From Nonlabens ponticola (GTDB taxonomy: Bacteria; Bacteroidota; Bacteroidia; Flavobacteriales; Flavobacteriaceae): DNA of 32,000 bases. Below, one piece after another: positions 5,450 to 32,000 of this stretch. The stretch spans positions 150,001-182,000 of the forward strand of contig NZ_CP034549.1 of assembly GCF_003966335.1 (NCBI RefSeq), read 5' to 3'. The first letter of the stretch is position 1, and the number at the start of each line of letters is the position of its first letter. The notes beneath the pieces were generated by a model. The model made no database searches and was not told where the DNA came from. It saw nothing but the letters and a program-made list of their open reading frames with translations. Position numbers and translations under genes: made by a program.

Positions 5450-7093
5450 TTATGCAGACTTGTTGCTTTTCAACAACTCCATCAAGTCTGGATCTTGACC
5501 TAAAAGCACAGCCTCACTATTGATTCGACCTTCTAGCGGGCCGTTCTCCAATTTAAGAACGCCACGTGGACAAACCGCGCTACAAATACCGCAGCCTACA
5601 CAGCTGGCACGTATGATGTTTTCGCCCTTTTGAGCATAGCTGCGCACGTCAATTCCCATCTCACAGTAAGTAGAACAGTTACCACATGAAATACACTGAC
5701 CACCATTAGTCGTTATGCGAAATTTTGAAAACAAACGCTGCTGCAATCCCAAGATCGCCGCCATAGGACAACCAAAACGGCACCAAACGCGATTACCAAA
5801 AATGGGATAGAAACCAGTACCAATAACGCCAGAAAATATAGCACCAATCAAAAACCCATACAGACTCTTAACAGCAACATCCAGTGAGTAGATTTTCTCA
5901 TTAATACCGAATGAAAAGTAAGCAGCATTCACCTGTATCTGCGTGATGTCCACAAAGTAGATCAAAGCAACAGATGCTAATGATATAGCCAGATAAACCG
6001 TTGCACCAACAATCGCATCTTTCTTGAGCGTATCACGCTTCCAGATCATCACAGCTGCATACAAAACCACGAGAAGTGCCGCCACCGAAAACAAAAAGGT
6101 ATCTCTGGATAACCAGTAACCTTCGCCCTCATAACCTAGATAAACGCTTACCACAGTAGTCGTCATCATAACCACAAAAACGAGAACACTGTGTACTACC
6201 CAACGTTCTACTTTCCATGCAGCCTGTGACTTGTCAGACAATTGTCTAAAAGAATCTCCAGCAGTCTCGGCCAGGCCACCACAACCACAAACCCAACTAC
6301 AGTACCAGCGCTTACCATATTTGTATGTCAGTATAGGTGTGATGATAAAAATGGACGCTAGCCCAAAAAACAGCAAGAACATACCAATAGCACCAGAACT
6401 GATAAAGTCATTGATGCGGTATTGCTCAAAGTTGTAATAGTTGAGTGGCCAGATGTTTTTAAGATCGTAGTAAGGCAAGTTGAATCCGTCGCCGTTCAAT
6501 CGTGCCATAAATTCTGGAATCAAGAATGCAAAAGCCGTCTGAAAAAACATGACGCTGCTCGTGCGTATGATTTCATATCTATTGTGTCTATACTTCCAGA
6601 TAAATTTGACACCAAAAGCTAAAATAGCTACCGTATAGAGCGTACCATAAACAAACCATTGACTGGCAGGATTACCACTCAGCGCACGGCTCAAAGGATC
6701 AAATAGCGCCACCACACCAGTATTGGCACCATCTGGATTAAGGCCTAGCAATTCTGCATAGAAGTAGAGCACGATGTAAAATCCAGTAAGCGCAATTCCA
6801 GCCATCCAGCCTAAAACACCACGACTGGAAATAGACTTGAACCACACGCCGTCATTTTTAATTCCAGCCTGTTTGTGGGCATAACTAGCAATGGTAAAAC
6901 CTATAATCCCGACGCTCATTAGCACCAAAGATGCTGTGAGCCACAAAGCAGCATTAGTTATAGATTGATTGAAAAGATGCAAGACGAGGATACCTAATCC
7001 TGCCATACCAGCAAAAACCGATGCGCGTTGACCTGCATTAAGTGATTTTGGCGGCTCGCCAGTTAAGGACATACTTTTTTGAACAGTGGACAT
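5450..7093 (-). CDS. Polytopic membrane 4Fe-4S ferredoxin-type protein (NapH/polyferredoxin-like)
   Basis: Many hydrophobic helices, plus Cys clusters YCSWVCGCGG and VWCRFGCPMAA. Two classical ferredoxin motifs are present: CISCGNCSTYCE and CVGCGICSAVCP. Confidence 0.7.
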   Translation of the reverse strand: MSTVQKSMSLTGEPPKSLNAGQRASVFAGMAGLGILVLHLFNQSITNAALWLTASLVLMSVGIIGFTIASYAHKQAGIKNDGVWFKSISSRGVLGWMAGIALTGFYIVLYFYAELLGLNPDGANTGVVALFDPLSRALSGNPASQWFVYGTLYTVAILAFGVKFIWKYRHNRYEIIRTSSVMFFQTAFAFLIPEFMARLNGDGFNLPYYDLKNIWPLNYYNFEQYRINDFISSGAIGMFLLFFGLASIFIITPILTYKYGKRWYCSWVCGCGGLAETAGDSFRQLSDKSQAAWKVERWVVHSVLVFVVMMTTTVVSVYLGYEGEGYWLSRDTFLFSVAALLVVLYAAVMIWKRDTLKKDAIVGATVYLAISLASVALIYFVDITQIQVNAAYFSFGINEKIYSLDVAVKSLYGFLIGAIFSGVIGTGFYPIFGNRVWCRFGCPMAAILGLQQRLFSKFRITTNGGQCISCGNCSTYCEMGIDVRSYAQKGENIIRASCVGCGICSAVCPRGVLKLENGPLEGRINSEAVLLGQDPDLMELLKSNKSA

Positions 7094-7120
7094 AATAAAT
7101 GCTTTTGGTGGTTACAACAA

Positions 7121-8422
7121 CTATGCGGTTTGTGCAGCTTCTTTAAAATCAAAGTCTGCTTTTATGGCTGCAAATGGTTTGGTATAAAACTCTGGATTGA
7201 AACAAGACTTCTCAATATTAGAAATCACTTGATCTACCGTGCGCTCGTCAGTGAGCCATTGGTCAAATACCTCATGTCGCATGCGTATCCCAAAAGTGTT
7301 GATGCCAATGAACTTACGACTGGCGATATTGTACTCAACCGTGATGGCGCGGTCCTCTTTAAGATCTTTCCAGTGGTAGTGCGCGTGCCCTTCTTTTGGT
7401 ACAGCCCATACCCAACCATAGGTTTGATATTCGATATCCATGAACTTGGCACTATTGAACCAGTGTCCTGGATTCCATTTTTTAGGATTACCACATAAAG
7501 TTTGTGCCAGCGTCTCGCCCATCATGCGACCTGTGTACCAAACTGCTTCTACTGACTTGCGCTCGCCTACTGGCTCACGTTGTTGCGCGCAATCGCCTAT
7601 GGCATAAACATCAGGATAATTCGTCTGTAAATGACGATCAACTAGAATACCGCGATCGGTTTCTATGCCGCTGCCTGTTAAAAAGCCAATTTGAGGTCGC
7701 ACTCCAGCGCAAAGTCCGACAAGGTTGCACTCTATGATTTCGCCTTTGGCGGTTTTGACCGCTTTGACTTTTCCGTTTTCGTCTCCTATGATTTCTGCCA
7801 TTTCTTCTTCATGGCGCAAATCAATATGATGCGACAAGATATGATCTGAAATCATGGTAGCGTCTGGCAACGGCAACACGCCACTCCAGAATGCTTTCTC
7901 GCGCACAAGGAATGTCACTGGTATTTTTCTGGTGTGCAGCATTTCGGCAAGCTCGACACCTATCAAGCCACCACCGATGATCACGGCGCGTTTGCAAACT
8001 TGATTATTGGGCGCGTTGATTTCCAGCGCATCTAGATCTTGTCGAGACACCAGCCCTTGAACGCCTTGCAAATCCTGGCCAGGCCAGCCAAACTTGTTAG
8101 GGATACTACCGGTAGCCAGCACCAGTTTGTCATACTGCATTTGGTCGCCAGTTGCAAAAGTGAGTGTCTTAGAATCTGGCTCAACTTGCTTTACGTATGC
8201 GTTCTTGAGCTCGATATTGTTCTTTTCCCAGAACCAATTCTCATACGGTTGCGTGTGCGCAAATTTCATGTGACCCATGTACACATACATCAGCGCCGTG
8301 CGCGAGAAAAAGTAATCTGTCTCTGCACTTATGACAGTAATTCTATGATCTGAAAGTTTGCGTATGTGGCGCGCACAGGTGATTCCTGCAATGCCATTTC
8401 CTATGATAACAATGTGATCCAT
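7121..8422 (-). CDS. NAD(P)/FAD-dependent pyridine-nucleotide-disulfide-type oxidoreductase
   Basis: I prefer the ATG at 8422 (MDHIVIIGNGIAGITCA, a Rossmann motif at the N-terminus) to the listed 8482 start. A second motif, RAVIIGGGLIGVELAEML, is present, along with YAIGDCA near the FAD site. Confidence 0.8.
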   Translation of the reverse strand: MDHIVIIGNGIAGITCARHIRKLSDHRITVISAETDYFFSRTALMYVYMGHMKFAHTQPYENWFWEKNNIELKNAYVKQVEPDSKTLTFATGDQMQYDKLVLATGSIPNKFGWPGQDLQGVQGLVSRQDLDALEINAPNNQVCKRAVIIGGGLIGVELAEMLHTRKIPVTFLVREKAFWSGVLPLPDATMISDHILSHHIDLRHEEEMAEIIGDENGKVKAVKTAKGEIIECNLVGLCAGVRPQIGFLTGSGIETDRGILVDRHLQTNYPDVYAIGDCAQQREPVGERKSVEAVWYTGRMMGETLAQTLCGNPKKWNPGHWFNSAKFMDIEYQTYGWVWAVPKEGHAHYHWKDLKEDRAITVEYNIASRKFIGINTFGIRMRHEVFDQWLTDERTVDQVISNIEKSCFNPEFYTKPFAAIKADFDFKEAAQTA

Positions 8423-25089: not shown

Positions 25090-25163
25090 GGTCTGGTAGT
25101 TCAGCTGGTTAGAATGTCGCCCTGTCACGGCGAAGGTCGCGGGTTCGAATCCCGTCCAGACCG
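25090..25163 (+). tRNA. tRNA-Asp (anticodon GTC)
   Basis: Hand-folded cloverleaf. Acceptor stem GGTCTGG/CCAGACC, D stem GTTC/GAAT, anticodon stem TCGCC/GGCGA with loop CTGTCAC, T stem GCGGG/CCCGT with loop TTCGAAT, discriminator G. CCA is not encoded. Confidence 0.92.
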
Positions 25164-25203
25164 CAAATTTTGGTTTGACAACCAATGTAAGATTCAAGTT
25201 GTG

Positions 25204-25544: not shown

Positions 25545-26132
25545 ATGAGCCAGCTTGAAGTACCCATCACTGATGTTGAGACGTTTATCTATTGTCTTGA
25601 GGTGGTTCCCGATGTTGATGTTGTTCAAACTACTGAGGTTACTTCAATTCTTGAAGATATTGCGCGCAATCAACACATCACGAGTATTTATAAAGCTTGC
25701 GACACCATTGAAGGACTTGAAGAAGCTATCAATCAGCTTATTTATGATGACCATCATTTCAAGGATTATGAGATAATATACTTGGTCTTACCAGGCGATG
25801 CCAATAACATTCTTATCAACGGCTACTATTACAGCATTGAAGAAATTGCAGAATTGTTTGAAGGCAAACTGGACGGCAAGATTCTCCATTTTGCTAATAA
25901 AAAGGTACTTGATCTGACTGATGAGGAATCACAGTATTTTATGGATATCACAGGTGCTAGAGCGGTTTCTGGATACGGCTTCAAATCAGATAATTTGACA
26001 AGCGCGTTTACAATTGATCGAGTGTTTTTTAGCCTGTTTTATGAGGACGATGACATCAAAGCTGTAGTAGAACGCATGTTTAGGAAGCATTACAAATTGT
26101 GTACGTTGCTGGATTTTAGATTGTATTATTGA
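25545..26132 (+). CDS. Hypothetical acidic cytoplasmic protein (195 aa), no recognised domain
   Basis: Clean ATG-initiated ORF with no signal peptide or transmembrane segment and rich in D/E. I cannot assign a family from the sequence. Confidence 0.5.
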   Translation: MSQLEVPITDVETFIYCLEVVPDVDVVQTTEVTSILEDIARNQHITSIYKACDTIEGLEEAINQLIYDDHHFKDYEIIYLVLPGDANNILINGYYYSIEEIAELFEGKLDGKILHFANKKVLDLTDEESQYFMDITGARAVSGYGFKSDNLTSAFTIDRVFFSLFYEDDDIKAVVERMFRKHYKLCTLLDFRLYY

Positions 26133-26145
26133 TTCTGGTGGGTTA

Positions 26146-26161
26146 CGCTTTCGCGAAAGCG
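26146..26161. repeat. Palindrome family copy J (perfect; GTTACGC...GCGGAATT)
   Basis: Lies between the convergent stops of the 195-aa ORF (26132) and blh (26178). Confidence 0.95.
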
Positions 26162-26177
26162 GAATTATCGACTCATT

Positions 26178-27101
26178 TTAAACAGGTGGTCGCTCCCAAT
26201 GATTATCTGGATTTTGATTTCGCTGCCATGCGAAGAGCAAAACGTGAGGAATGGTAGTTGCGGCGCTAAGTATGATTACTAGTGATAGCTGGGTAATAGT
26301 ATCGCCCATAAGCAGGTAGAGCATCACGATACCAGCGATCGACACTAGGTAAAATGGCAAGGCTTTTTTTATGTAAGTCATAAAACCCTCCAATCGCTTC
26401 AATTTTAAATCGTCTAGTTGACTTATAATACTAGGAACACTGTGCCAGAATACAAAGTAAAAAGCAAACCCTTGAAGCAAATCAAAGACCGTAAAAAATA
26501 GATACAGCACTAACAGACTGAGCTGCAATATCAAGAATTGATACACCTTGATACGCCTTAAAATCATGTTCCCGAAGGAAACGATCGCCTGAATTACCAG
26601 AAAAGGGATTAGTGCTAGATAGTTCCATTCAATTAGAGTTGGGTCAAATATGGTAGTAGATAAAACTTGCTGTAGCTCTTGTATATTAGCTATGAATAAA
26701 ATCGCAAAAACAGAAAGCCCATAGAAAAACGCCAGTAGGTTACCTGACCATCCTTTTACTGGCATCCAGTGATGCAAATGCTCCTCGCCAAAATGATAAG
26801 CGCTTACCAAAACAAAAACATTGAGTGCCACCCATGGTAATCCCCAAAAAAGTAATGCAATTGCTGCACCTGCAGCGATGTAAATAGAAATAAAGCTGAC
26901 TAATTTTATTTGGAACTTCCCAGCAGATCGCAGAATGAAATAATCATTTGCGCCGTGAATCAAACCTAATGTAGCGACTAATATCATCAAAAAAATGGAG
27001 AGAAACCGGTCATTAACAAGGCCGACTCTACCAATAAAAAAGCCACCTAGAGTGATGGCTATTAATGTGATATATAAAATAAGAGGCTTAGTCTTTAACA
27101 T
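26178..27101 (-). CDS. blh: Brp/Blh-family beta-carotene 15,15'-dioxygenase (retinal synthesis)
   Basis: Polytopic membrane protein with the conserved His motifs HGANDY, AYHFGEEH and FVFWHSVPS. I prefer the ATG at 27101 (MLKTKPLILY...), which still overlaps the upstream gene by 14 nt. The ORF-track start at 27137 is also possible. Confidence 0.85.
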   Translation of the reverse strand: MLKTKPLILYITLIAITLGGFFIGRVGLVNDRFLSIFLMILVATLGLIHGANDYFILRSAGKFQIKLVSFISIYIAAGAAIALLFWGLPWVALNVFVLVSAYHFGEEHLHHWMPVKGWSGNLLAFFYGLSVFAILFIANIQELQQVLSTTIFDPTLIEWNYLALIPFLVIQAIVSFGNMILRRIKVYQFLILQLSLLVLYLFFTVFDLLQGFAFYFVFWHSVPSIISQLDDLKLKRLEGFMTYIKKALPFYLVSIAGIVMLYLLMGDTITQLSLVIILSAATTIPHVLLFAWQRNQNPDNHWERPPV

Positions 27102-28266
27102 CTTCAAAAATAGGAAAAGGCAAGTCAGTGATATCAATGTCTTCTTGATGTAACCTCAATAATGATTTGCGTAATGACTTGACGAGAATAGGATCTTCTT
27201 TCATATAGTTCCACATCTCAACATAACAATAGCGCACTAGATCGACGGTTTTGAGCCATTTGACATAGACGTAATGTTCTCCATCTTCTGAATAGCAATT
27301 GTGATCTGGTATTCTTGATCTCAGGATAAATAGCTGTGTGAGGTAGTCAATGGCACCTAGCGCCGTTCCTGGATCATTGATCGCTGGACTACTTGCTTTT
27401 ACGGCCACTTCTACCAGGTGTTTTATCTCAGTCTCATGCATTTCAAGCGGTACGCGCATACTTACATTGACCTGTTTCCTGATGTTGCTCCACAATTTTT
27501 CGATATCACCATCAGTGCGCAGTAGCACGTCCTCTTGCAAGACAAACATACCTGGTTGCGGTTCAATCCATACGTGACATTTATTCTTTTTAGCGATTTT
27601 TCCTAACGCGTCTAGGTCAGGTATTTGAAAATATCCGCAGTCATCGCTTTTTTTGACATTCCAGCTATTCAAATCTTCTGGTCTGCCTTTACTTTCAGAG
27701 ATTTCTGCACGCTTGTGCATGCCTTCAATGCCTTTACTGGATTTAGTAAAACTCTTTTTCAGGATATAATTAATGTGAATAGACTGCGATACACTGTGTA
27801 TAAAGTAGATAAAAAGTAAAATACAAATGATGCTAAAAACAATACCTATGGTAGCGCCTAGCGGTGGCCGTCTAGATATTTCCTCACTGGCAGCTGGTAT
27901 TGATAAAACCATTGCATAAATGATCGTACCGCAATTAAAACCTAGTGTTAATTGATGGTGTTTCTCTGATAGGATAAGCGGTATCAATCTAGGTGAGAAG
28001 TTATTGATGCTACGATCCATCACATTCATTACCATCGTATAACTAAATATGGTCAGCGTGAAGATCCCACCAATAATAAACATGAGAACAAACTGAATGT
28101 TCTCACGATCCTGAATCATAAGATTCTTGAGGAAATGCGGTAAGTTTTCTGCCTCGTATGGCAAAAAAATTAACACCACGGCAAAGACCAAAAAAGATAG
28201 CGCTATTCCCGCAGGGACTAGCGCTACACTATCATATACTCTTCTTATAAGTGTGAGCAGCTTCAC
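27088..28266 (-). CDS. DUF2254-family membrane protein of unknown function
   Basis: About four N-terminal hydrophobic helices, NFSPRLIPL after helix 2, and a ~220-aa soluble C-terminal part carrying the SSPAINDPGTALGAIDYL signature that I associate with DUF2254 (PF10011). The GTG start shares its G with the rhodopsin TAG stop. Confidence 0.7.
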   Translation of the reverse strand: MKLLTLIRRVYDSVALVPAGIALSFLVFAVVLIFLPYEAENLPHFLKNLMIQDRENIQFVLMFIIGGIFTLTIFSYTMVMNVMDRSINNFSPRLIPLILSEKHHQLTLGFNCGTIIYAMVLSIPAASEEISRRPPLGATIGIVFSIICILLFIYFIHSVSQSIHINYILKKSFTKSSKGIEGMHKRAEISESKGRPEDLNSWNVKKSDDCGYFQIPDLDALGKIAKKNKCHVWIEPQPGMFVLQEDVLLRTDGDIEKLWSNIRKQVNVSMRVPLEMHETEIKHLVEVAVKASSPAINDPGTALGAIDYLTQLFILRSRIPDHNCYSEDGEHYVYVKWLKTVDLVRYCYVEMWNYMKEDPILVKSLRKSLLRLHQEDIDITDLPFPIFEDVKD

Positions 28267-29087
28267 TATGCTACCGCACTCTTATCCATACCTATTTTAT
28301 CAAGTGCTTGTTGCGCTGGTACATATCCAGCAGCGGCAGATTGTTTGATGGCAATGTAGGTAATCATGATACCGTAAATCACTTTACTTGATATATCAGC
28401 CACCGTAAATAATCCTTGTCTCAATACTACACCATCAGCGCTAGGCATAAATTGCGGTACTAGATAAGCTATAGGATATAGTGTCCATGCAAACATCATT
28501 AACCAGAAAACCTTGGTAATAGTAGATTGGGTACCACCAGTCATGGTAGACTTGTTTCTAAAGATTCTTACACCTACAATCCAGTTCATCACTACAAAGA
28601 ATGCTGTACTAATCGCTCCCCAAACCATGAGTTGTGATAGATCATCTACTTCATACAATTGTCCAATATAACCTGTAACGATCATACCCCATGCAGAGAT
28701 GATTAACCAGGTCGCTGTTGAAAATATTGATTTACCCTTCAAGTTCAAGACGATCAATAATTGTACAAGCAAACATGGAATGGTAGCCATCCAGTTCACA
28801 TAACGGTAACCGTTAGAGAATGTTAGATCTTGCAGAGTGTACACCTCACCATTAAATCTAAAGGCGTCAGTCCACATTGCAGCTTGTGAAAACAGGATCA
28901 TACCTGCCGACAACATTACAATACAAGACAATGCTGTTGCAACTCTATATTTAGGAGCTACAAAACGGGACACCACAATAAAGAATACTAATGCAGCAAA
29001 GTGCACACCTACGCCCATGGTAAGCATGTGATCGATAGCTTCAAATTGACCTACCGTGTAATCGTATAAATTTTCAATGTTTCTCAT
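28266..29087 (-). CDS. Microbial rhodopsin with the NTQ motif (light-driven inward chloride pump class, ClR)
   Basis: Seven hydrophobic helices. Helix C, RYVNWMATIPCLLVQ, aligns to bacteriorhodopsin RYADWLFTTPLLLLD, giving N98/T102/Q109 at the D85/T89/D96 positions. The Schiff-base lysine is in DISSKVIYG (K235). The sequence is very close to what I recall of Nonlabens marinus NM-R3. Confidence 0.92.
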   Translation of the reverse strand: MRNIENLYDYTVGQFEAIDHMLTMGVGVHFAALVFFIVVSRFVAPKYRVATALSCIVMLSAGMILFSQAAMWTDAFRFNGEVYTLQDLTFSNGYRYVNWMATIPCLLVQLLIVLNLKGKSIFSTATWLIISAWGMIVTGYIGQLYEVDDLSQLMVWGAISTAFFVVMNWIVGVRIFRNKSTMTGGTQSTITKVFWLMMFAWTLYPIAYLVPQFMPSADGVVLRQGLFTVADISSKVIYGIMITYIAIKQSAAAGYVPAQQALDKIGMDKSAVA

Positions 29088-29107: not shown

Positions 29108-29115
29108 CAAACATA
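29108..29115 (-). promoter_or_regulatory. Candidate -7 promoter box (TATGTTTG on the minus strand) for the rhodopsin operon
   Basis: Exact TAnnTTTG match 20 nt upstream of the rhodopsin ATG. No convincing -33 TTTG is present. Confidence 0.3.
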
Positions 29116-29197: not shown

Positions 29198-29213
29198 CGC
29201 TTTCGCGAAAGCG
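29198..29213. repeat. Palindrome family copy K (perfect; GGATTACGC...GCGGAAT)
   Basis: Lies in the divergent intergenic region between the rhodopsin operon (start 29087) and the LuxR-type regulator gene (start 29374). Confidence 0.95.
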
Positions 29214-29373: not shown

Positions 29374-32000
29374 ATGCTCAAGTACCTATTCCTTTTCATG
29401 TTACTGTCCATGAGCGGTCATTTAGTATCACAGGATCTACATCCTGAAATCACTAATTACTCCTATGGTGGTAGTCAAAACTGGAGTATTGATATTGATG
29501 AATCTCAAATTGTTTCCATAGCCAATAATTCTGGGCTAACAAGATTTGATGGGCAATCCTGGTCCTTGCATCCCATTCCCAAGAAAATGATCGTACGTTC
29601 TGTACTGTGTGTGGGCAGCAGGACCTACATAGGCTCTTATGAAGAATTTGGTTATTGGGACAAGCAAGAAAATGGCGAGCTCATATATCATTCTCTATCA
29701 ACAAAGTTTCCTGAAAAAACACCACAACAAAGTGAAGAGTTCTGGCAGATTATTGAGCATGAAGGCATTATCTATTTTAGGTCTTTTGGATCGATTTATA
29801 AATATGATGGCACTAGCATCCAACTAGTTGTGAACTCCTTAGATATTTCTAGTCTAGCGGTACTTGATAGTAAATTGCTTTACGGTAGTCTCTCGCAAGG
29901 AGTTTTTGAGGTAGTTGGGAATCAGGTTAGACCTTATTCCCATGGAACATCACTAGATGAACTTACCAACGTGAACAACATTGAAGTGTTTGATAACCAA
30001 TTGTTCATCTATGATCAAACACGTGGTGCATTCCTGTATGATTCTAAGGAGCGTATAGAACTATCTAATTCCTTAGAACAAATGCTTGAAGAGGATGTTC
30101 TTAATAAGGTAGAATTTATTGATGATGATAGAATCGCTTTTGGAACTATTAAGAATGGTGTAATAATATATTCTATAGCGAGTCAAAATATTGAGACTAT
30201 TAATAGAAAGTCGGGATTACGGAATAATACTGTATTGGATCTTACAGCCCACAATGGAAATTTATGGCTGGCCTTAGATAATGGTGTAAGTCGCATCGCA
30301 GTAGATAGCGCTATTTCTTTTTATACTGATGACACTGGCACATTAGGGACTGTATATGATATTGAATTACTTAATGGACAACTTTATCTAGCCAGCAATA
30401 CTGGTGTTTATACTTTCATTGATAACCAATTGACCCTTTTGGAAAATTCTGAAGGTCATTGTTGGGGCATCCATAAATCCAATAGTGAGCTATTCTTTGG
30501 CCATAATAAAGGAGCACTGATTCTGGCAAATGGAAAGCTTGAATTAATAGAAGGTTCCTACAGCGGCGTCTACGATTACGTTCCTATCCCGAATTCTCAA
30601 GACTTTCTATTATCGACCTATTCTGGAATAGGGTATCTATCTATCGATAACGGCAGCTATGAAGTAACAAAACTCGACGGGCTGGACGTGCCTATTGACA
30701 ACATCATTTTTGAGAACGAAAAGCTCCTATGGGCGACAGATAATTTCAAAAATCTATTTAAAATAGAGTTTAACACCAACAATAAGACGCTTGAAAGTGT
30801 AGTCTTGATGGAAAGCAAGGAGTTAGCAAAGGAGAAAATGGTTGATATCGTCAAAATTGATGATCTACCTTACTTTGTGATAGGTGGATCATGGTTTACC
30901 TACTCGCATGGAAAAAGCAGCTTTCAACCTGCTGAAAAATTTGAAGGTAAATTACTGATTGGTCAAGATGATAGCAGTCTTTGGTTTATGAATGAAGATC
31001 GTTCTAGCATCGTCAAGATAGACCGGCAGTCAGGTGAAGTAACAACACTTTCTAATCAAGAATTTTTCTCAAAACTCGTAGACGGTTACTCAAAAGTTTT
31101 CGCGATTGACGAAAACCGCAGCAGCATCAACCTTAAAGACGGATTTGCAATTATTCACAATGATAAAAGCGGTATCAATGATTATGAAAGCATAATCATC
31201 AAGGAAATAACCGCTAGCGATAAGATAATAGAGCGATCTGAGCCGAATGACCTCATATTGAGTTATGAAGAAGCTAGATCTATAAACTTTAAAATTTATT
31301 CTCCTGGTAATTATGATCATAATTTCACATACCAGCTTGAAGGAGAAATGAGTCAATCTGATAAAATTATGGATGGTAGTTTCATGCTGCGCAATCTCAA
31401 AAGCGGCAATTATATTTTATCTATTGTCGATAGTGGGAACGACCAAATAAGAAAAGAACTGAGCATTGAGGTAATGGCGCCCTGGTATCTAAGTTGGTGG
31501 ATGAAGCTGGGTTATTTACTGTTACTTATAGCATTATTGTTCCTTGCAGGTAGATATCAAAAGATCAAAGCCAATAAAGCTCATAACAAGGCTCAAAAAG
31601 AATTACTACAACAAGCCAAGCAAAAGCTTGAAGCTGTGGAAAAAGAGAACCTAATTAAAGAAGTGGAGTCTCGACAAAAGGAATTGATTAACCGCACCGC
31701 GACGATTGTAAGAAAGAATGAGGCGATCATAACTCTAAGAAATGAACTTAGAAAACTTCAGGAAAGCTCGCCTAATAAGATCAGGACAGACAATATTTTA
31801 AAAAGAACTGGTGAACAGCTGGACAGTAAAAATGACTGGCATTTATTTGAGTCAAAATTCAATTCATTGAATGAGGACTTCTTTAATAATCTATCCAGAA
31901 AGTTTCCAAAATTGACCAGTAAAGATCAAAAGCTATGTGCCTATATCAAAATAGGTCTTACTTCTAAAGAAATTGCTCCGTTGTTGGGAATCACTAAAAG
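29374..32000 (+). CDS. Transmembrane one-component regulator: periplasmic beta-propeller repeats plus a Y_Y_Y domain, one TM helix, a coiled coil and a LuxR-type HTH; the 3' end lies outside the window
   Basis: This ORF is not in the ORF track because it runs off the window. I translated it by hand and it is open from the ATG at 29374 to nt 32000 (875+ codons). It has a signal peptide (MLKYLFLFMLLSMSGHLVSQ), repeated propeller-like units (e.g. NGNLWLALDNGVSRI, NGQLYLASNTGVYTF) and a Y_Y_Y-like INFKIYSPGNYDHNFTYQLEG. The TM helix WYLSWWMKLGYLLLLIALLFLAG lies at ~31483-31551, and it ends in LTSKDQKLCAYIKIGLTSKEIAPLLGIT (LuxR HTH). Confidence 0.8.
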   Translation, partial: MLKYLFLFMLLSMSGHLVSQDLHPEITNYSYGGSQNWSIDIDESQIVSIANNSGLTRFDGQSWSLHPIPKKMIVRSVLCVGSRTYIGSYEEFGYWDKQENGELIYHSLSTKFPEKTPQQSEEFWQIIEHEGIIYFRSFGSIYKYDGTSIQLVVNSLDISSLAVLDSKLLYGSLSQGVFEVVGNQVRPYSHGTSLDELTNVNNIEVFDNQLFIYDQTRGAFLYDSKERIELSNSLEQMLEEDVLNKVEFIDDDRIAFGTIKNGVIIYSIASQNIETINRKSGLRNNTVLDLTAHNGNLWLALDNGVSRIAVDSAISFYTDDTGTLGTVYDIELLNGQLYLASNTGVYTFIDNQLTLLENSEGHCWGIHKSNSELFFGHNKGALILANGKLELIEGSYSGVYDYVPIPNSQDFLLSTYSGIGYLSIDNGSYEVTKLDGLDVPIDNIIFENEKLLWATDNFKNLFKIEFNTNNKTLESVVLMESKELAKEKMVDIVKIDDLPYFVIGGSWFTYSHGKSSFQPAEKFEGKLLIGQDDSSLWFMNEDRSSIVKIDRQSGEVTTLSNQEFFSKLVDGYSKVFAIDENRSSINLKDGFAIIHNDKSGINDYESIIIKEITASDKIIERSEPNDLILSYEEARSINFKIYSPGNYDHNFTYQLEGEMSQSDKIMDGSFMLRNLKSGNYILSIVDSGNDQIRKELSIEVMAPWYLSWWMKLGYLLLLIALLFLAGRYQKIKANKAHNKAQKELLQQAKQKLEAVEKENLIKEVESRQKELINRTATIVRKNEAIITLRNELRKLQESSPNKIRTDNILKRTGEQLDSKNDWHLFESKFNSLNEDFFNNLSRKFPKLTSKDQKLCAYIKIGLTSKEIAPLLGITK

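What the first reader, a model, noticed from the sequence alone, without database searches (positions are those of the whole stretch)
26178..29087. An uncharacterised DUF2254 membrane protein sits inside a chloride-pump rhodopsin / retinal-synthase operon
The three minus-strand genes are joined stop-to-start. The rhodopsin TAG shares its G with the GTG start of the DUF2254 gene (TAGTG, 28264-28268). The DUF2254 TAA (27088-27090) lies inside blh, whose first plausible ATG is at 27099-27101 (ATGTTAAAGACTAA). No room is left for a promoter or terminator, so the sequence argues for co-transcription and translational coupling. The flavobacterial retinal photosystem as I know it is rhodopsin plus blh, with crt genes elsewhere. 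A 392-aa protein with about four TM helices and a large soluble domain (SPAINDPGTA signature), and no assigned function, is an unexpected third member placed between pump and chromophore enzyme. Possible roles are an accessory or assembly factor for the pump, a Cl-/anion conductance or homeostasis partner, or a transducer that couples light-driven Cl- import to something else.
Basis: partly seen in the sequence, partly recalled or inferred. Interest (0 to 1): 0.8.

Follow-up and report, generated by a model that had tools for sequence, protein, structure and literature searches.

The report
Conserved partner gene of chloride-pump rhodopsin
In this marine flavobacterium a light-driven chloride pump gene is joined stop-to-start to a membrane-protein gene of unknown function, and the pairing is conserved across two bacterial classes, so the unknown protein is probably a missing partner in how these bacteria handle light-driven chloride uptake.

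Summary
The window comes from Nonlabens ponticola. It carries a minus-strand unit of three genes: an NTQ chloride-pump rhodopsin (ClR), a DUF2254 gene and blh. The junctions are TAGTG and a 14-nt overlap. In one-genome-per-species contigs, a DUF2254 gene sits directly downstream of the NTQ rhodopsin in 32 of 42 assessable loci, from Flavobacteriia and Saprospiria. It is absent from all 27 assessable NDQ (sodium-pump) loci (p=3e-11). The junction is -4 to +10 nt in almost every linked locus. DUF2254 is the only neighbour family shared by both classes; blh follows only in some Flavobacteriaceae. The linked gene is under purifying selection. Its confident AlphaFold model (four TM helices plus a cytoplasmic domain) matches no solved fold. 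The pairing is not obligate: ClR occurs without DUF2254 and the reverse, and no residues are specific to linked copies. In other phyla, DUF2254 genes are adjacent to, and sometimes overlap, MscS-type channel and Na+/H+ antiporter genes. My best reading is an ion-homeostasis partner of the pump, such as a counter-ion path, relief valve or sensor, not a retinal enzyme. No function has been shown. I found no published report of the linkage.

The parts
28266..29087 (-). NTQ chloride-pumping rhodopsin (ClR), 273 aa, first gene of the unit
   Evidence: PF01036 E=4e-58. 81% identical to the N. marinus ClR, and PDB 5b2n/5g28 E~1e-148. N98/T102/Q109, D231 and K235 present.
28264..28268 (-). TAGTG junction: the ClR stop and the DUF2254 GTG start share one base
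   Evidence: Read directly. Equivalent junctions (TAATG, TGATG, ATGA, or +1 to +10 nt) occur in 36 of 37 linked loci.
27088..28266 (-). DUF2254 membrane protein, 392 aa: four TM helices (16-34, 54-89, 103-126, 137-162), a stalk helix (165-188) and a cytoplasmic alpha/beta domain carrying the SPAINDPGT loop (293-301)
   Evidence: PF10011 E=8.5e-64. AF2 pLDDT 92, pTM 0.85. No PDB fold or sequence match. Conservation map. dN/dS 0.05-0.15 in linked relatives.
27088..27101 (-). 14-nt overlap between the end of DUF2254 (TAA 27088-27090) and the blh start (ATG 27099-27101)
   Evidence: Read directly. The DUF2254-to-blh gap is -20 to +10 nt in Flavobacteriaceae relatives, and also -14 in N. antarcticus L004.
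26178..27101 (-). blh, beta-carotene 15,15'-dioxygenase (retinal synthase), 307 aa, last gene of the unit
   Evidence: PF15461 E=5e-36. TIGR03753 138 bits against a cut-off of 95.
29108..29115 (-). Candidate Bacteroidetes-type -7 promoter box TATGTTTG (TAnnTTTG), 21 nt upstream of the ClR ATG
   Evidence: Pattern match only. The motif occurs about 0.47 times per kb per strand in the window, so this is weak evidence. The sigma-70 scan was uninformative.
29198..29213 (.). Perfect 16-bp palindrome CGCTTTCGCGAAAGCG upstream of the promoter region. It brackets the unit together with the copy at 26146-26161
   Evidence: It is one copy of a dispersed repeat, with 11 copies of the 14-nt core in the window against 0 expected.
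26146..26161 (.). Second copy of the palindrome, 17 nt downstream of the blh stop, between blh and the convergent DUF6642 gene. It is a possible terminator or insulator hairpin
   Evidence: No function was tested.

Best explanation
ClR, DUF2254 and blh form one transcription unit, and DUF2254 is translated by coupling to the ClR stop codon, so pump and partner are made together. DUF2254 is a conserved accessory of NTQ chloride pumps in Bacteroidota. It is not part of retinal synthesis. Most likely it is an ion-homeostasis membrane protein. Its conserved centre is the cytoplasmic half of a four-helix TM bundle plus a helix-loop-helix (SPAINDPGT) from the cytoplasmic domain. I propose that it handles the consequence of electrogenic, light-driven Cl- entry. 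It could provide or gate a counter-ion or relief pathway, giving net salt uptake or protection against hyperpolarisation and Cl- overload, or it could sense the ionic state. This would parallel the way other DUF2254 genes are paired with MscS-type channels and Na+/H+ antiporters. Shown: gene anatomy, conservation and enrichment of the pairing, purifying selection, the novel fold, and the association of the family with ion translocators. Inferred: co-transcription, translational coupling and ion-related function. Speculative: that the protein itself conducts ions, and which ion.
For: (1) Anatomy: the junctions are a 1-nt and a 14-nt overlap, with no room for an internal promoter or terminator. 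(2) Census: 32/42 assessable NTQ loci have DUF2254 at +1 on the same strand, against 0/27 NDQ loci, Fisher p=3.4e-11. Cultured strains N. spongiae, Nonlabens sp. YIK11 and N. antarcticus show the same order. (3) Among 44 NTQ loci, DUF2254 is the only neighbour family shared by Flavobacteriia and Saprospiria (33 loci). blh is found in 12, and everything else is lineage-restricted. (4) The junction is conserved at -4 to +10 nt. (5) The ClR and DUF2254 trees share their subclades, so the pair is inherited as a unit, and the DUF-positive state is spread over the whole ClR tree. (6) dN/dS of linked DUF2254 is 0.05-0.15. (7) Saprospiria keep ClR-DUF2254 without blh, and rhodopsin+blh clusters of NDQ type never carry DUF2254, so the link is to the Cl- pump and not to the chromophore. 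(8) Elsewhere, DUF2254 overlaps or abuts ion translocators: DUF2254->Na_H_Exchanger at -4 nt (L107); MscS->DUF2254 at -4 nt (L134); DUF2254-MscS-Na:H antiporter at +9 and +4 nt (L131); further cases. An MscS or cation:proton antiporter gene lies within 3.5 kb in 6/17 annotated plasmid loci, against about 0.7% expected from 1.13 Mb of control loci, p~2e-9. (9) Conservation is concentrated in TM2, TM4, the cytoplasmic helix ends and one loop, while the rest of the soluble domain varies. That pattern fits a membrane-embedded active centre or pore better than a scaffold.
Against: No experiment or homology assigns any activity. Foldseek and profile searches of the PDB found nothing. The pairing is not obligate: 10/42 NTQ loci lack DUF2254 next door, with at least 8 scattered losses. 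A close Flavobacteriia sister clade of DUF2254, and one member inside the linked clade (L084), have no rhodopsin. No residue distinguishes linked from unlinked copies. ClR alone pumps Cl- when expressed in E. coli; this is established knowledge from the N. marinus and Fulvimarina work and was not re-checked here. The enrichment counts loci, not independent events, and the linkage probably arose once. The NDQ controls come mostly from other phyla, and proton-pump (DTE) controls were not retrieved. The association with ion transporters comes from plasmid stress islands that also carry YetF, EEP phosphatase and ferritin-like genes, so it could reflect co-regulation under stress and not a shared ion function.
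Confidence: 0.45

Rival explanations
1. DUF2254 is a dedicated physical subunit of the pump. It would act as an assembly, stabilising or regulatory partner that binds ClR in the membrane, with translational coupling setting the stoichiometry.
For: Start/stop overlap is typical of subunits of one complex. The topology is compatible: the ClR C-terminus and the DUF2254 N-terminus are both cytoplasmic, by the positive-inside rule applied to the helices. The two trees are congruent.
Against: No residues are specific to linked copies. The same family pairs with unrelated MscS and CPA proteins, which argues against a ClR-specific interface. ClR works alone in E. coli (established knowledge). 24% of ClR loci lack DUF2254. 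No complex prediction could be run.
Confidence: 0.2
2. DUF2254 is a general membrane-stress protein that is co-expressed with ClR but acts independently of chloride. It would share regulation (light or stress) without sharing ion chemistry.
For: The second paralogue type in Flavobacteriaceae is conserved next to a divergent HSP20 gene. The plasmid contexts look like general-stress islands, with CsbD, ferritin-like, YetF, PRC-barrel and DUF305 genes. Linked and unlinked copies do not differ.
Against: This does not explain why the association is with NTQ pumps only and never with NDQ pumps. It also does not explain why the junction is kept at -4 to +10 nt over class-level divergence, or why the closest operonic partners elsewhere are ion translocators.
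Confidence: 0.15
3. The linkage is a historical accident. ClR once landed upstream of a resident DUF2254 gene, and the pair has since travelled together by descent and cassette transfer without any functional relation.
For: The linkage is compatible with a single origin. There are at least 8 losses of the adjacency. A sister clade has no rhodopsin. The cassette demonstrably moves: in the N. spongiae group it was inserted between HSP20 and another resident DUF2254.
Against: All other neighbours have been scrambled between the two classes, while this one stayed at +1 with an overlapping junction. The gene is intact and under purifying selection in nearly all linked loci. A useless passenger would be expected to decay.
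Confidence: 0.15
4. DUF2254 is an enzyme or carrier of the chromophore pathway (retinal or carotenoid handling), placed between the opsin gene and blh.
For: In this window it sits between the rhodopsin gene and blh. Polar residues are conserved at the membrane-cytoplasm interface.
Against: In Saprospiria the ClR-DUF2254 pair persists without blh in the cluster. NDQ rhodopsin+blh clusters (Micromonospora, Tepidisphaerales, Salinarimonas) never contain DUF2254. Most family members lie in loci with no rhodopsin at all. The histidines are not conserved family-wide.
Confidence: 0.05

Closest known systems
Nonlabens marinus NM-R3 / ClR (NTQ chloride-pumping rhodopsin; PDB 5b2n, 5g28)
   Same: The window rhodopsin is 81% identical and has the same length, the same NTQ motif and the same Schiff-base lysine.
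   Different: Nothing notable in the pump itself. What is added here is its conserved downstream partner. I could not find that partner mentioned in the open-access ClR literature.
Flavobacterial rhodopsin-blh retinal photosystem clusters (proteorhodopsin or NaR plus blh, with crt genes elsewhere)
   Same: The opsin gene and the retinal-forming dioxygenase lie in one co-oriented unit.
   Different: A 392-aa membrane protein is inserted between them, with overlapping junctions on both sides. It tracks the ClR type and not blh.
DUF2254-MscS-Na+/H+ antiporter operons of Alphaproteobacteria and Cytophagia (e.g. Sphingomonas insulae plasmid, Methylobacterium aquaticum pMaq22A_2p)
   Same: The same Pfam family is co-oriented with, and often overlaps, a gene for an ion-translocating membrane protein.
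   Different: The partner there is a channel or an antiporter, not a light-driven pump. Those DUF2254 proteins are only about 23-33% identical to the window protein. None has been characterised either.
Halorhodopsin-based salt uptake in haloarchaea (Cl- pumped in, K+ follows through a separate pathway)
   Same: This is a functional analogy only. An inward Cl- pump needs a counter-ion route for net salt uptake. This is established physiology and is cited from memory.
   Different: No DUF2254 involvement is known there.
Bestrophin-rhodopsin fusions and four-TM oligomeric anion channels (bestrophin, LRRC8)
   Same: The architecture of four TM helices plus a cytoplasmic domain, and the association with a rhodopsin, are reminiscent of these channels.
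   Different: Foldseek against the PDB gave no match to bestrophin or to any channel; the best hit had E=0.23 and TM-score 0.14. DUF2254 is therefore not a member of those families.

Membership tests
NTQ chloride-pumping rhodopsin (ClR) | Microbial rhodopsin seven-TM domain with a Schiff-base lysine | tested here: met
   PF01036 at 197 bits, residues 17-248. K235 and D231 are aligned and invariant.
NTQ chloride-pumping rhodopsin (ClR) | Asn-Thr-Gln at the positions of bacteriorhodopsin D85/T89/D96 | tested here: met
   N98, T102 and Q109 lie in NWMATIPCLLVQ. An HMM-aligned motif call separates NTQ from NDQ loci.
NTQ chloride-pumping rhodopsin (ClR) | Light-driven inward Cl- transport | not testable with these tools
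   Inferred from 81% identity to the experimentally characterised and crystallised N. marinus ClR.
Pfam PF10011 / DUF2254 | Full-length match to the family HMM above the gathering score | tested here: met
   216 bits against a cut-off of 28.8, residues 13-369 on profile positions 3-366 of 368.
Pfam PF10011 / DUF2254 | Four N-terminal TM helices plus a C-terminal soluble domain with the SPAxNDPxT loop | tested here: met
   AF2 model with pLDDT 92. S293, P294, N297, D298 and T301 are conserved in every subgroup.
Blh/Brp beta-carotene 15,15'-dioxygenase | Match to PF15461 and TIGR03753 above their cut-offs | tested here: met
   125 bits against 28 and 138.5 bits against 95.25.
Blh/Brp beta-carotene 15,15'-dioxygenase | Cleavage of beta-carotene to retinal | not testable with these tools
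   Inferred from family membership only.
Single operon with translational coupling | Co-oriented genes with overlapping or abutting stop and start codons and no internal terminator | tested here: met
   The overlaps are 1 nt and 14 nt and are conserved in relatives. The terminator-like hits inside the genes are weak and not conserved.
Single operon with translational coupling | One mRNA spanning all three genes | not testable with these tools
   No transcript data are available.
Known anion or ion channel folds (bestrophin, CLC, MscS, LRRC8, ALMT and others) | Structural or sequence similarity to a solved member | tested here: not met
   Foldseek against the PDB gave no hit with E<0.2. A profile search of PDB sequences gave no hit with E<0.07. 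NCBIfam gave nothing.
Conserved ClR-DUF2254 gene pair (defined here) | DUF2254 immediately downstream of an NTQ rhodopsin on the same strand, with a gap of 10 nt or less | tested here: met
   The window gap is -1 nt. The same holds in 32/42 species-level loci and in 0/27 NDQ loci.

The most novel reading that the evidence does not exclude
DUF2254 is a new, structurally unprecedented family of ion-conducting or ion-sensing membrane proteins, with about 7,400 UniProt members according to PMC11184937. Together with ClR it would form a two-component, light-driven salt-uptake or osmoregulation module. That would explain what inward chloride pumps are for in marine Bacteroidota, and why the same family is wired to MscS channels and Na+/H+ antiporters in other phyla.
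Probability: 0.25. Interest if true: 0.85.

Novelty: new variant of a known kind. Interest (0 to 1): 0.68.

Why it matters
The structure and photochemistry of NTQ chloride pumps have been studied in great detail, but their physiological purpose in marine bacteria is still unclear. A partner gene that is conserved and translationally coupled offers a concrete experimental handle on that question. The obvious experiments are co-expression, deletion and flux assays. The finding also gives the first functional context for DUF2254, a large family with no solved fold. Here it is tied to three unrelated classes of ion translocators. If the partner modulates or complements Cl- transport, this would also matter for the optogenetic use of ClR. 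Until now ClR has been expressed without it.

Tried and rejected
- Fold and homology searches for DUF2254 found nothing usable. This covers Foldseek against the PDB, a profile search of PDB sequences and NCBIfam.
- Literature searches for DUF2254, PF10011, COG4325 and IPR018723, and for ClR synteny, found only a protein-knot paper and nothing on rhodopsin. The 2014 PNAS ClR paper is not held, so an early unremarked gene map cannot be excluded.
- The sigma-70 promoter scan found fewer hits than shuffled sequence and is unsuited to Bacteroidota. The TAnnTTTG match upstream of ClR is weak evidence.
- I first took the second DUF2254 paralogue upstream of ClR (9 loci) as independent evidence of linkage. 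I rejected that reading. In Maribacter and Gillisia the resident arrangement is HSP20|DUF2254-esterase. The ClR cassette was inserted into that intergenic region once, in the N. spongiae group.
- A search for residues specific to ClR-linked copies found none.
- ClR is not on any PLSDB plasmid.
- Look-ups of P0053 and P0006 (N. marinus) were not on record, so adjacency in N. marinus itself is unverified.
- A fused ClR-linker-DUF2254 paired alignment was prepared but not submitted.
- The apparently gene-free 29.1-32 kb stretch is a long + strand ORF that runs off the window. It is neither a degraded paralogue nor an RNA gene.
Full report
WHAT IS THERE

The window is from Nonlabens ponticola. The rhodopsin and the DUF2254 protein are 100% identical to proteins from a 2.87-Mb N. 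ponticola contig (P0121, P0001). Three minus-strand genes are packed together:
- A 273-aa rhodopsin at 28266-29087.
- A 392-aa DUF2254 protein at 27088-28266.
- A 307-aa Blh at 26178-27101.

The rhodopsin TAG and the DUF2254 GTG share a base (TAGTG). The blh ATG lies 14 nt inside the DUF2254 gene.

Pfam assigns the three proteins to PF01036, PF10011 and PF15461, all with strong scores. TIGR03753 confirms Blh.

The rhodopsin carries the NTQ motif (N98, T102, Q109) and the Schiff-base lysine K235. It is 81% identical to the crystallised N. marinus chloride pump.

The GTG start is correct. The N-terminal sequence it adds is conserved in relatives. The public 363-aa gene model is too short.

LIMITS OF THE UNIT

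A TAnnTTTG box of the Bacteroidetes -7 type lies 21 nt upstream of the ClR ATG. A perfect 16-bp palindrome, CGCTTTCGCGAAAGCG, lies on both sides of the three genes, at 29198-29213 and 26146-26161. It belongs to a dispersed repeat with 11 copies of the core in the window, so it is not specific to this unit. It may still act as a hairpin boundary.

Upstream and divergent is a long ORF that runs off the window. It has no Pfam hit. Downstream and convergent is a DUF6642 gene.

IS THE PAIRING MORE THAN CHANCE?

A scan of one genome per species with a ClR alignment returned 78 loci. I called ORFs and searched them with HMMs built here, and assigned rhodopsin motifs from an HMM alignment.
- Of the NTQ loci with enough downstream sequence, 32 of 42 have a DUF2254 gene directly downstream on the same strand.
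- None of the 27 assessable NDQ (sodium-pump type) loci has one within 8 kb (Fisher p=3.4e-11).

The linked loci include Nonlabens, Pricia, Leeuwenhoekiella, Gangjinia and Aequorivita. They also include many Flavobacteriaceae MAGs, Lewinella/Neolewinella, other Saprospiraceae and a Chitinophagales MAG. Cultured strains N. spongiae and Nonlabens sp. YIK11 show the same order.

I clustered all neighbours within four genes of the rhodopsin. DUF2254 is the only family shared by both classes (33 of 44 loci). blh appears in 12 loci, all Flavobacteriaceae. Every other family is lineage-restricted.

The ClR-to-DUF2254 gap is -4 to +10 nt in all linked loci but one, often as TAATG, TGATG or ATGA.

The ClR and DUF2254 trees share their subclades, and the DUF-positive state is spread over the whole NTQ tree. 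The pair is therefore ancient and inherited as a unit, with at least eight scattered losses.

Where synonymous sites are not saturated, linked DUF2254 has dN/dS of 0.05-0.15, against 0.02-0.07 for ClR.

LIMITS OF THE ASSOCIATION

- It is not obligate. Ten NTQ loci have unrelated genes downstream.
- A DUF2254-centred metagenome scan found the rhodopsin next to only 3 of 14 close relatives.
- The unlinked copies form a Flavobacteriia sister clade of the linked ones. One example is Marixanthomonas ophiurae.
- One member inside the linked clade sits beside a tRNA with no rhodopsin (L084).
- No alignment position distinguishes linked from unlinked copies. The biochemical activity is therefore probably the same in both settings.
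- The enrichment counts loci, not events. The linkage probably arose once.
- The NDQ controls are mostly from other phyla. Proton-pump (DTE) controls were not retrieved.

A second DUF2254 paralogue (about 430 aa) lies divergently upstream of ClR in nine loci. It is the resident gene of an HSP20|DUF2254-esterase arrangement that Maribacter and Gillisia have without any rhodopsin. The ClR-DUF2254-blh(-TerB) cassette was inserted there once. I do not count this as independent support.

WHAT THE PROTEIN LOOKS LIKE

AlphaFold2, run with a 78-sequence alignment, gives a confident model (pLDDT 92, pTM 0.85). Its parts are:
- A short N-terminal helix.
- TM helices at 16-34, 54-89, 103-126 and 137-162.
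- A long helix at 165-188.
- An alpha/beta domain to about residue 375.

Charge distribution places the N-terminus and the soluble domain in the cytoplasm; this is inference.

Foldseek finds no solved structure that resembles the model (best E=0.23). A profile search of PDB sequences also finds nothing. The only literature on the family concerns its predicted knot or slipknot (PMC11184937).

Conservation across all subgroups is concentrated in four places:
- TM2.
- The SPRL turn after TM2.
- The cytoplasmic ends of TM3 and TM4.
- The helix-loop-helix EVAVKAxSPAINDPGT.

The rest of the soluble domain is variable. The residues invariant family-wide include R93, S160, S293, N297, D298, T301, Y154 and Y354. 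The histidines are not universally conserved, which argues against a His-based metal site.

This pattern suggests a membrane-embedded functional centre facing the cytoplasm. It does not say what that centre does.

WHAT THE FAMILY KEEPS COMPANY WITH ELSEWHERE

This is the most informative functional lead.
- In metagenome loci, a distant DUF2254 overlaps a Na+/H+ exchanger gene by 4 nt (L107). Another follows an MscS gene (L108).
- Portibacter has MscS and CorA genes nearby.
- Among 17 annotated plasmid loci from different genera, six have an MscS-family or cation:proton antiporter gene within 3.5 kb. They include DUF2254-MscS-Na:H antiporter with gaps of +9 and +4 nt in Sphingomonas insulae. 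They also include MscS overlapping DUF2254 by 4 nt in Methylobacterium aquaticum.
- Other loci carry TrkGA or a Na:Ca antiporter.
- In 1.13 Mb of control loci, the same queries found one homologue. That gives about 0.7% expected per window and p~2e-9. The controls are chromosomal and rhodopsin-centred, so the number is rough.
- Recurrent companions such as YetF, EEP phosphatase, ferritin-like and CsbD genes suggest stress islands.

HOW IT MOST LIKELY WORKS

Several points together indicate that DUF2254 is tied to the chloride pump and to ion handling, not to the chromophore:
- The link is specific to NTQ pumps.
- The pair persists without blh.
- The junction is conserved.
- The gene is under purifying selection.
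- The family is repeatedly coupled to three unrelated classes of ion translocators.

Because it pairs with unrelated partners and often stands alone, an autonomous activity that complements the partner is more economical than a dedicated binding subunit. An inward Cl- pump is electrogenic. It needs either a counter-ion route, for net salt uptake as in haloarchaeal physiology, or a relief route against Cl- loading and hyperpolarisation. I propose that DUF2254 supplies, gates or senses such a route, and that translational coupling fixes its amount relative to the pump.

I put about 0.7 on a real functional link to ion homeostasis. I put about 0.45 on the explanation as stated, and less on actual ion conduction.

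Rivals are a ClR-binding assembly or regulatory subunit, a chloride-independent stress protein that is merely co-expressed, an evolutionary passenger, and a chromophore-pathway enzyme. The last is disfavoured by the comparative data.

NOVELTY

ClR, Blh and the rhodopsin-blh cluster are known. The conserved, overlapping third gene is not mentioned in any paper I could search. This includes papers on YIK11 and on ClR-type synteny. The 2014 description of the N. marinus ClR could not be read. I rate the finding as a new variant of a known kind of system. It is of real interest because it makes the physiological role of ClR, and the function of a large orphan family, directly testable.

Noticed in passing
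window 1666, 5382, 8664, 10080, 12807, 14675, 16959, 20003, 24360, 26147, 29199 (14-nt core starts): The palindrome GCTTTCGCGAAAGC occurs 11 times in 32 kb (10 exact copies, 1 with one mismatch), against 0 expected. Some copies appear to fall inside ORFs. The same core is present in 13 Nonlabens-like loci, including about 120-300 nt upstream of ClR in L001 and L004, and inside the upstream DUF2254 paralogue at a conserved position. It looks like a genus-level REP-like element. Its function is unknown.
   Followed up: partly
L005, L006, L007, L009, L010, L011, L014, L052, L079 (about 6530-7860 in locus coordinates; L079 2708-4000): A second, roughly 430-aa DUF2254 paralogue lies directly upstream of ClR, mostly divergent. 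It is the resident gene of an HSP20|DUF2254-esterase arrangement seen without rhodopsin in Maribacter (L119) and Gillisia (L120). The ClR-DUF2254-blh-TerB cassette was inserted between HSP20 and this gene.
   Followed up: yes
window 28180-28266: The public gene model for the DUF2254 protein (P0001, 363 aa) starts at an internal GTG and drops about 29 conserved N-terminal residues, including half of TM1. The overlapping GTG at 28264-28266 is the start supported by homologues.
   Followed up: yes
L116 (Nonlabens sp. YIK11, LBMJ01000001.1 1451572-1464723); L002 5619-6458: In YIK11 the ClR-DUF2254-blh unit is flanked by two BLUF blue-light sensor genes, and a second rhodopsin lies 3.6 kb upstream. 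In L002 an NDQ rhodopsin lies 1.5 kb upstream of ClR. These look like small 'light islands'.
   Followed up: no
L131 3231-6885; L134 2536-4811; L107 4866-7447; L127; L126: DUF2254 genes of Alphaproteobacteria, Gammaproteobacteria and Cytophagia sit in tight, co-oriented arrays with MscS-family channel and Na+/H+ antiporter genes. YetF (DUF421) and endonuclease/exonuclease/phosphatase-family genes are recurrent companions.
   Followed up: partly
L035 1057-1884; L026 8839-10040: One Saprospiraceae MAG has an NTE motif instead of NTQ in an otherwise ClR-like rhodopsin. In L026 the linked DUF2254 is split into two ORFs, by a frameshift or an assembly error.
   Followed up: no
L084 (2.5-kb metagenome contig): A DUF2254 that branches inside the ClR-linked clade sits about 500 nt downstream of a tRNA gene with no rhodopsin. 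This may be a remnant after loss of ClR, or an integration hot spot.
   Followed up: partly
window 29401-32000 (+): A long ORF of at least 866 codons runs off the window end, divergent from ClR. It has no Pfam hit at E<=0.001. By eye its last residues resemble a LuxR-type HTH cut by the window edge. It is not conserved next to ClR in other loci.
   Followed up: partly
window 25090-25164 (+); 25545-26132 (+): A tRNA-Asp(GTC) gene and a DUF6642 gene (PF20347, E=4e-84) lie just downstream of, and convergent with, the unit.
   Followed up: no
L024, L038 and 10 other Saprospiria loci (e.g. L024 8880-11783, minus strand): A gene of about 967 aa on the opposite strand is conserved one or two genes downstream of ClR in 12 Saprospiria loci. 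It was not identified.
   Followed up: no
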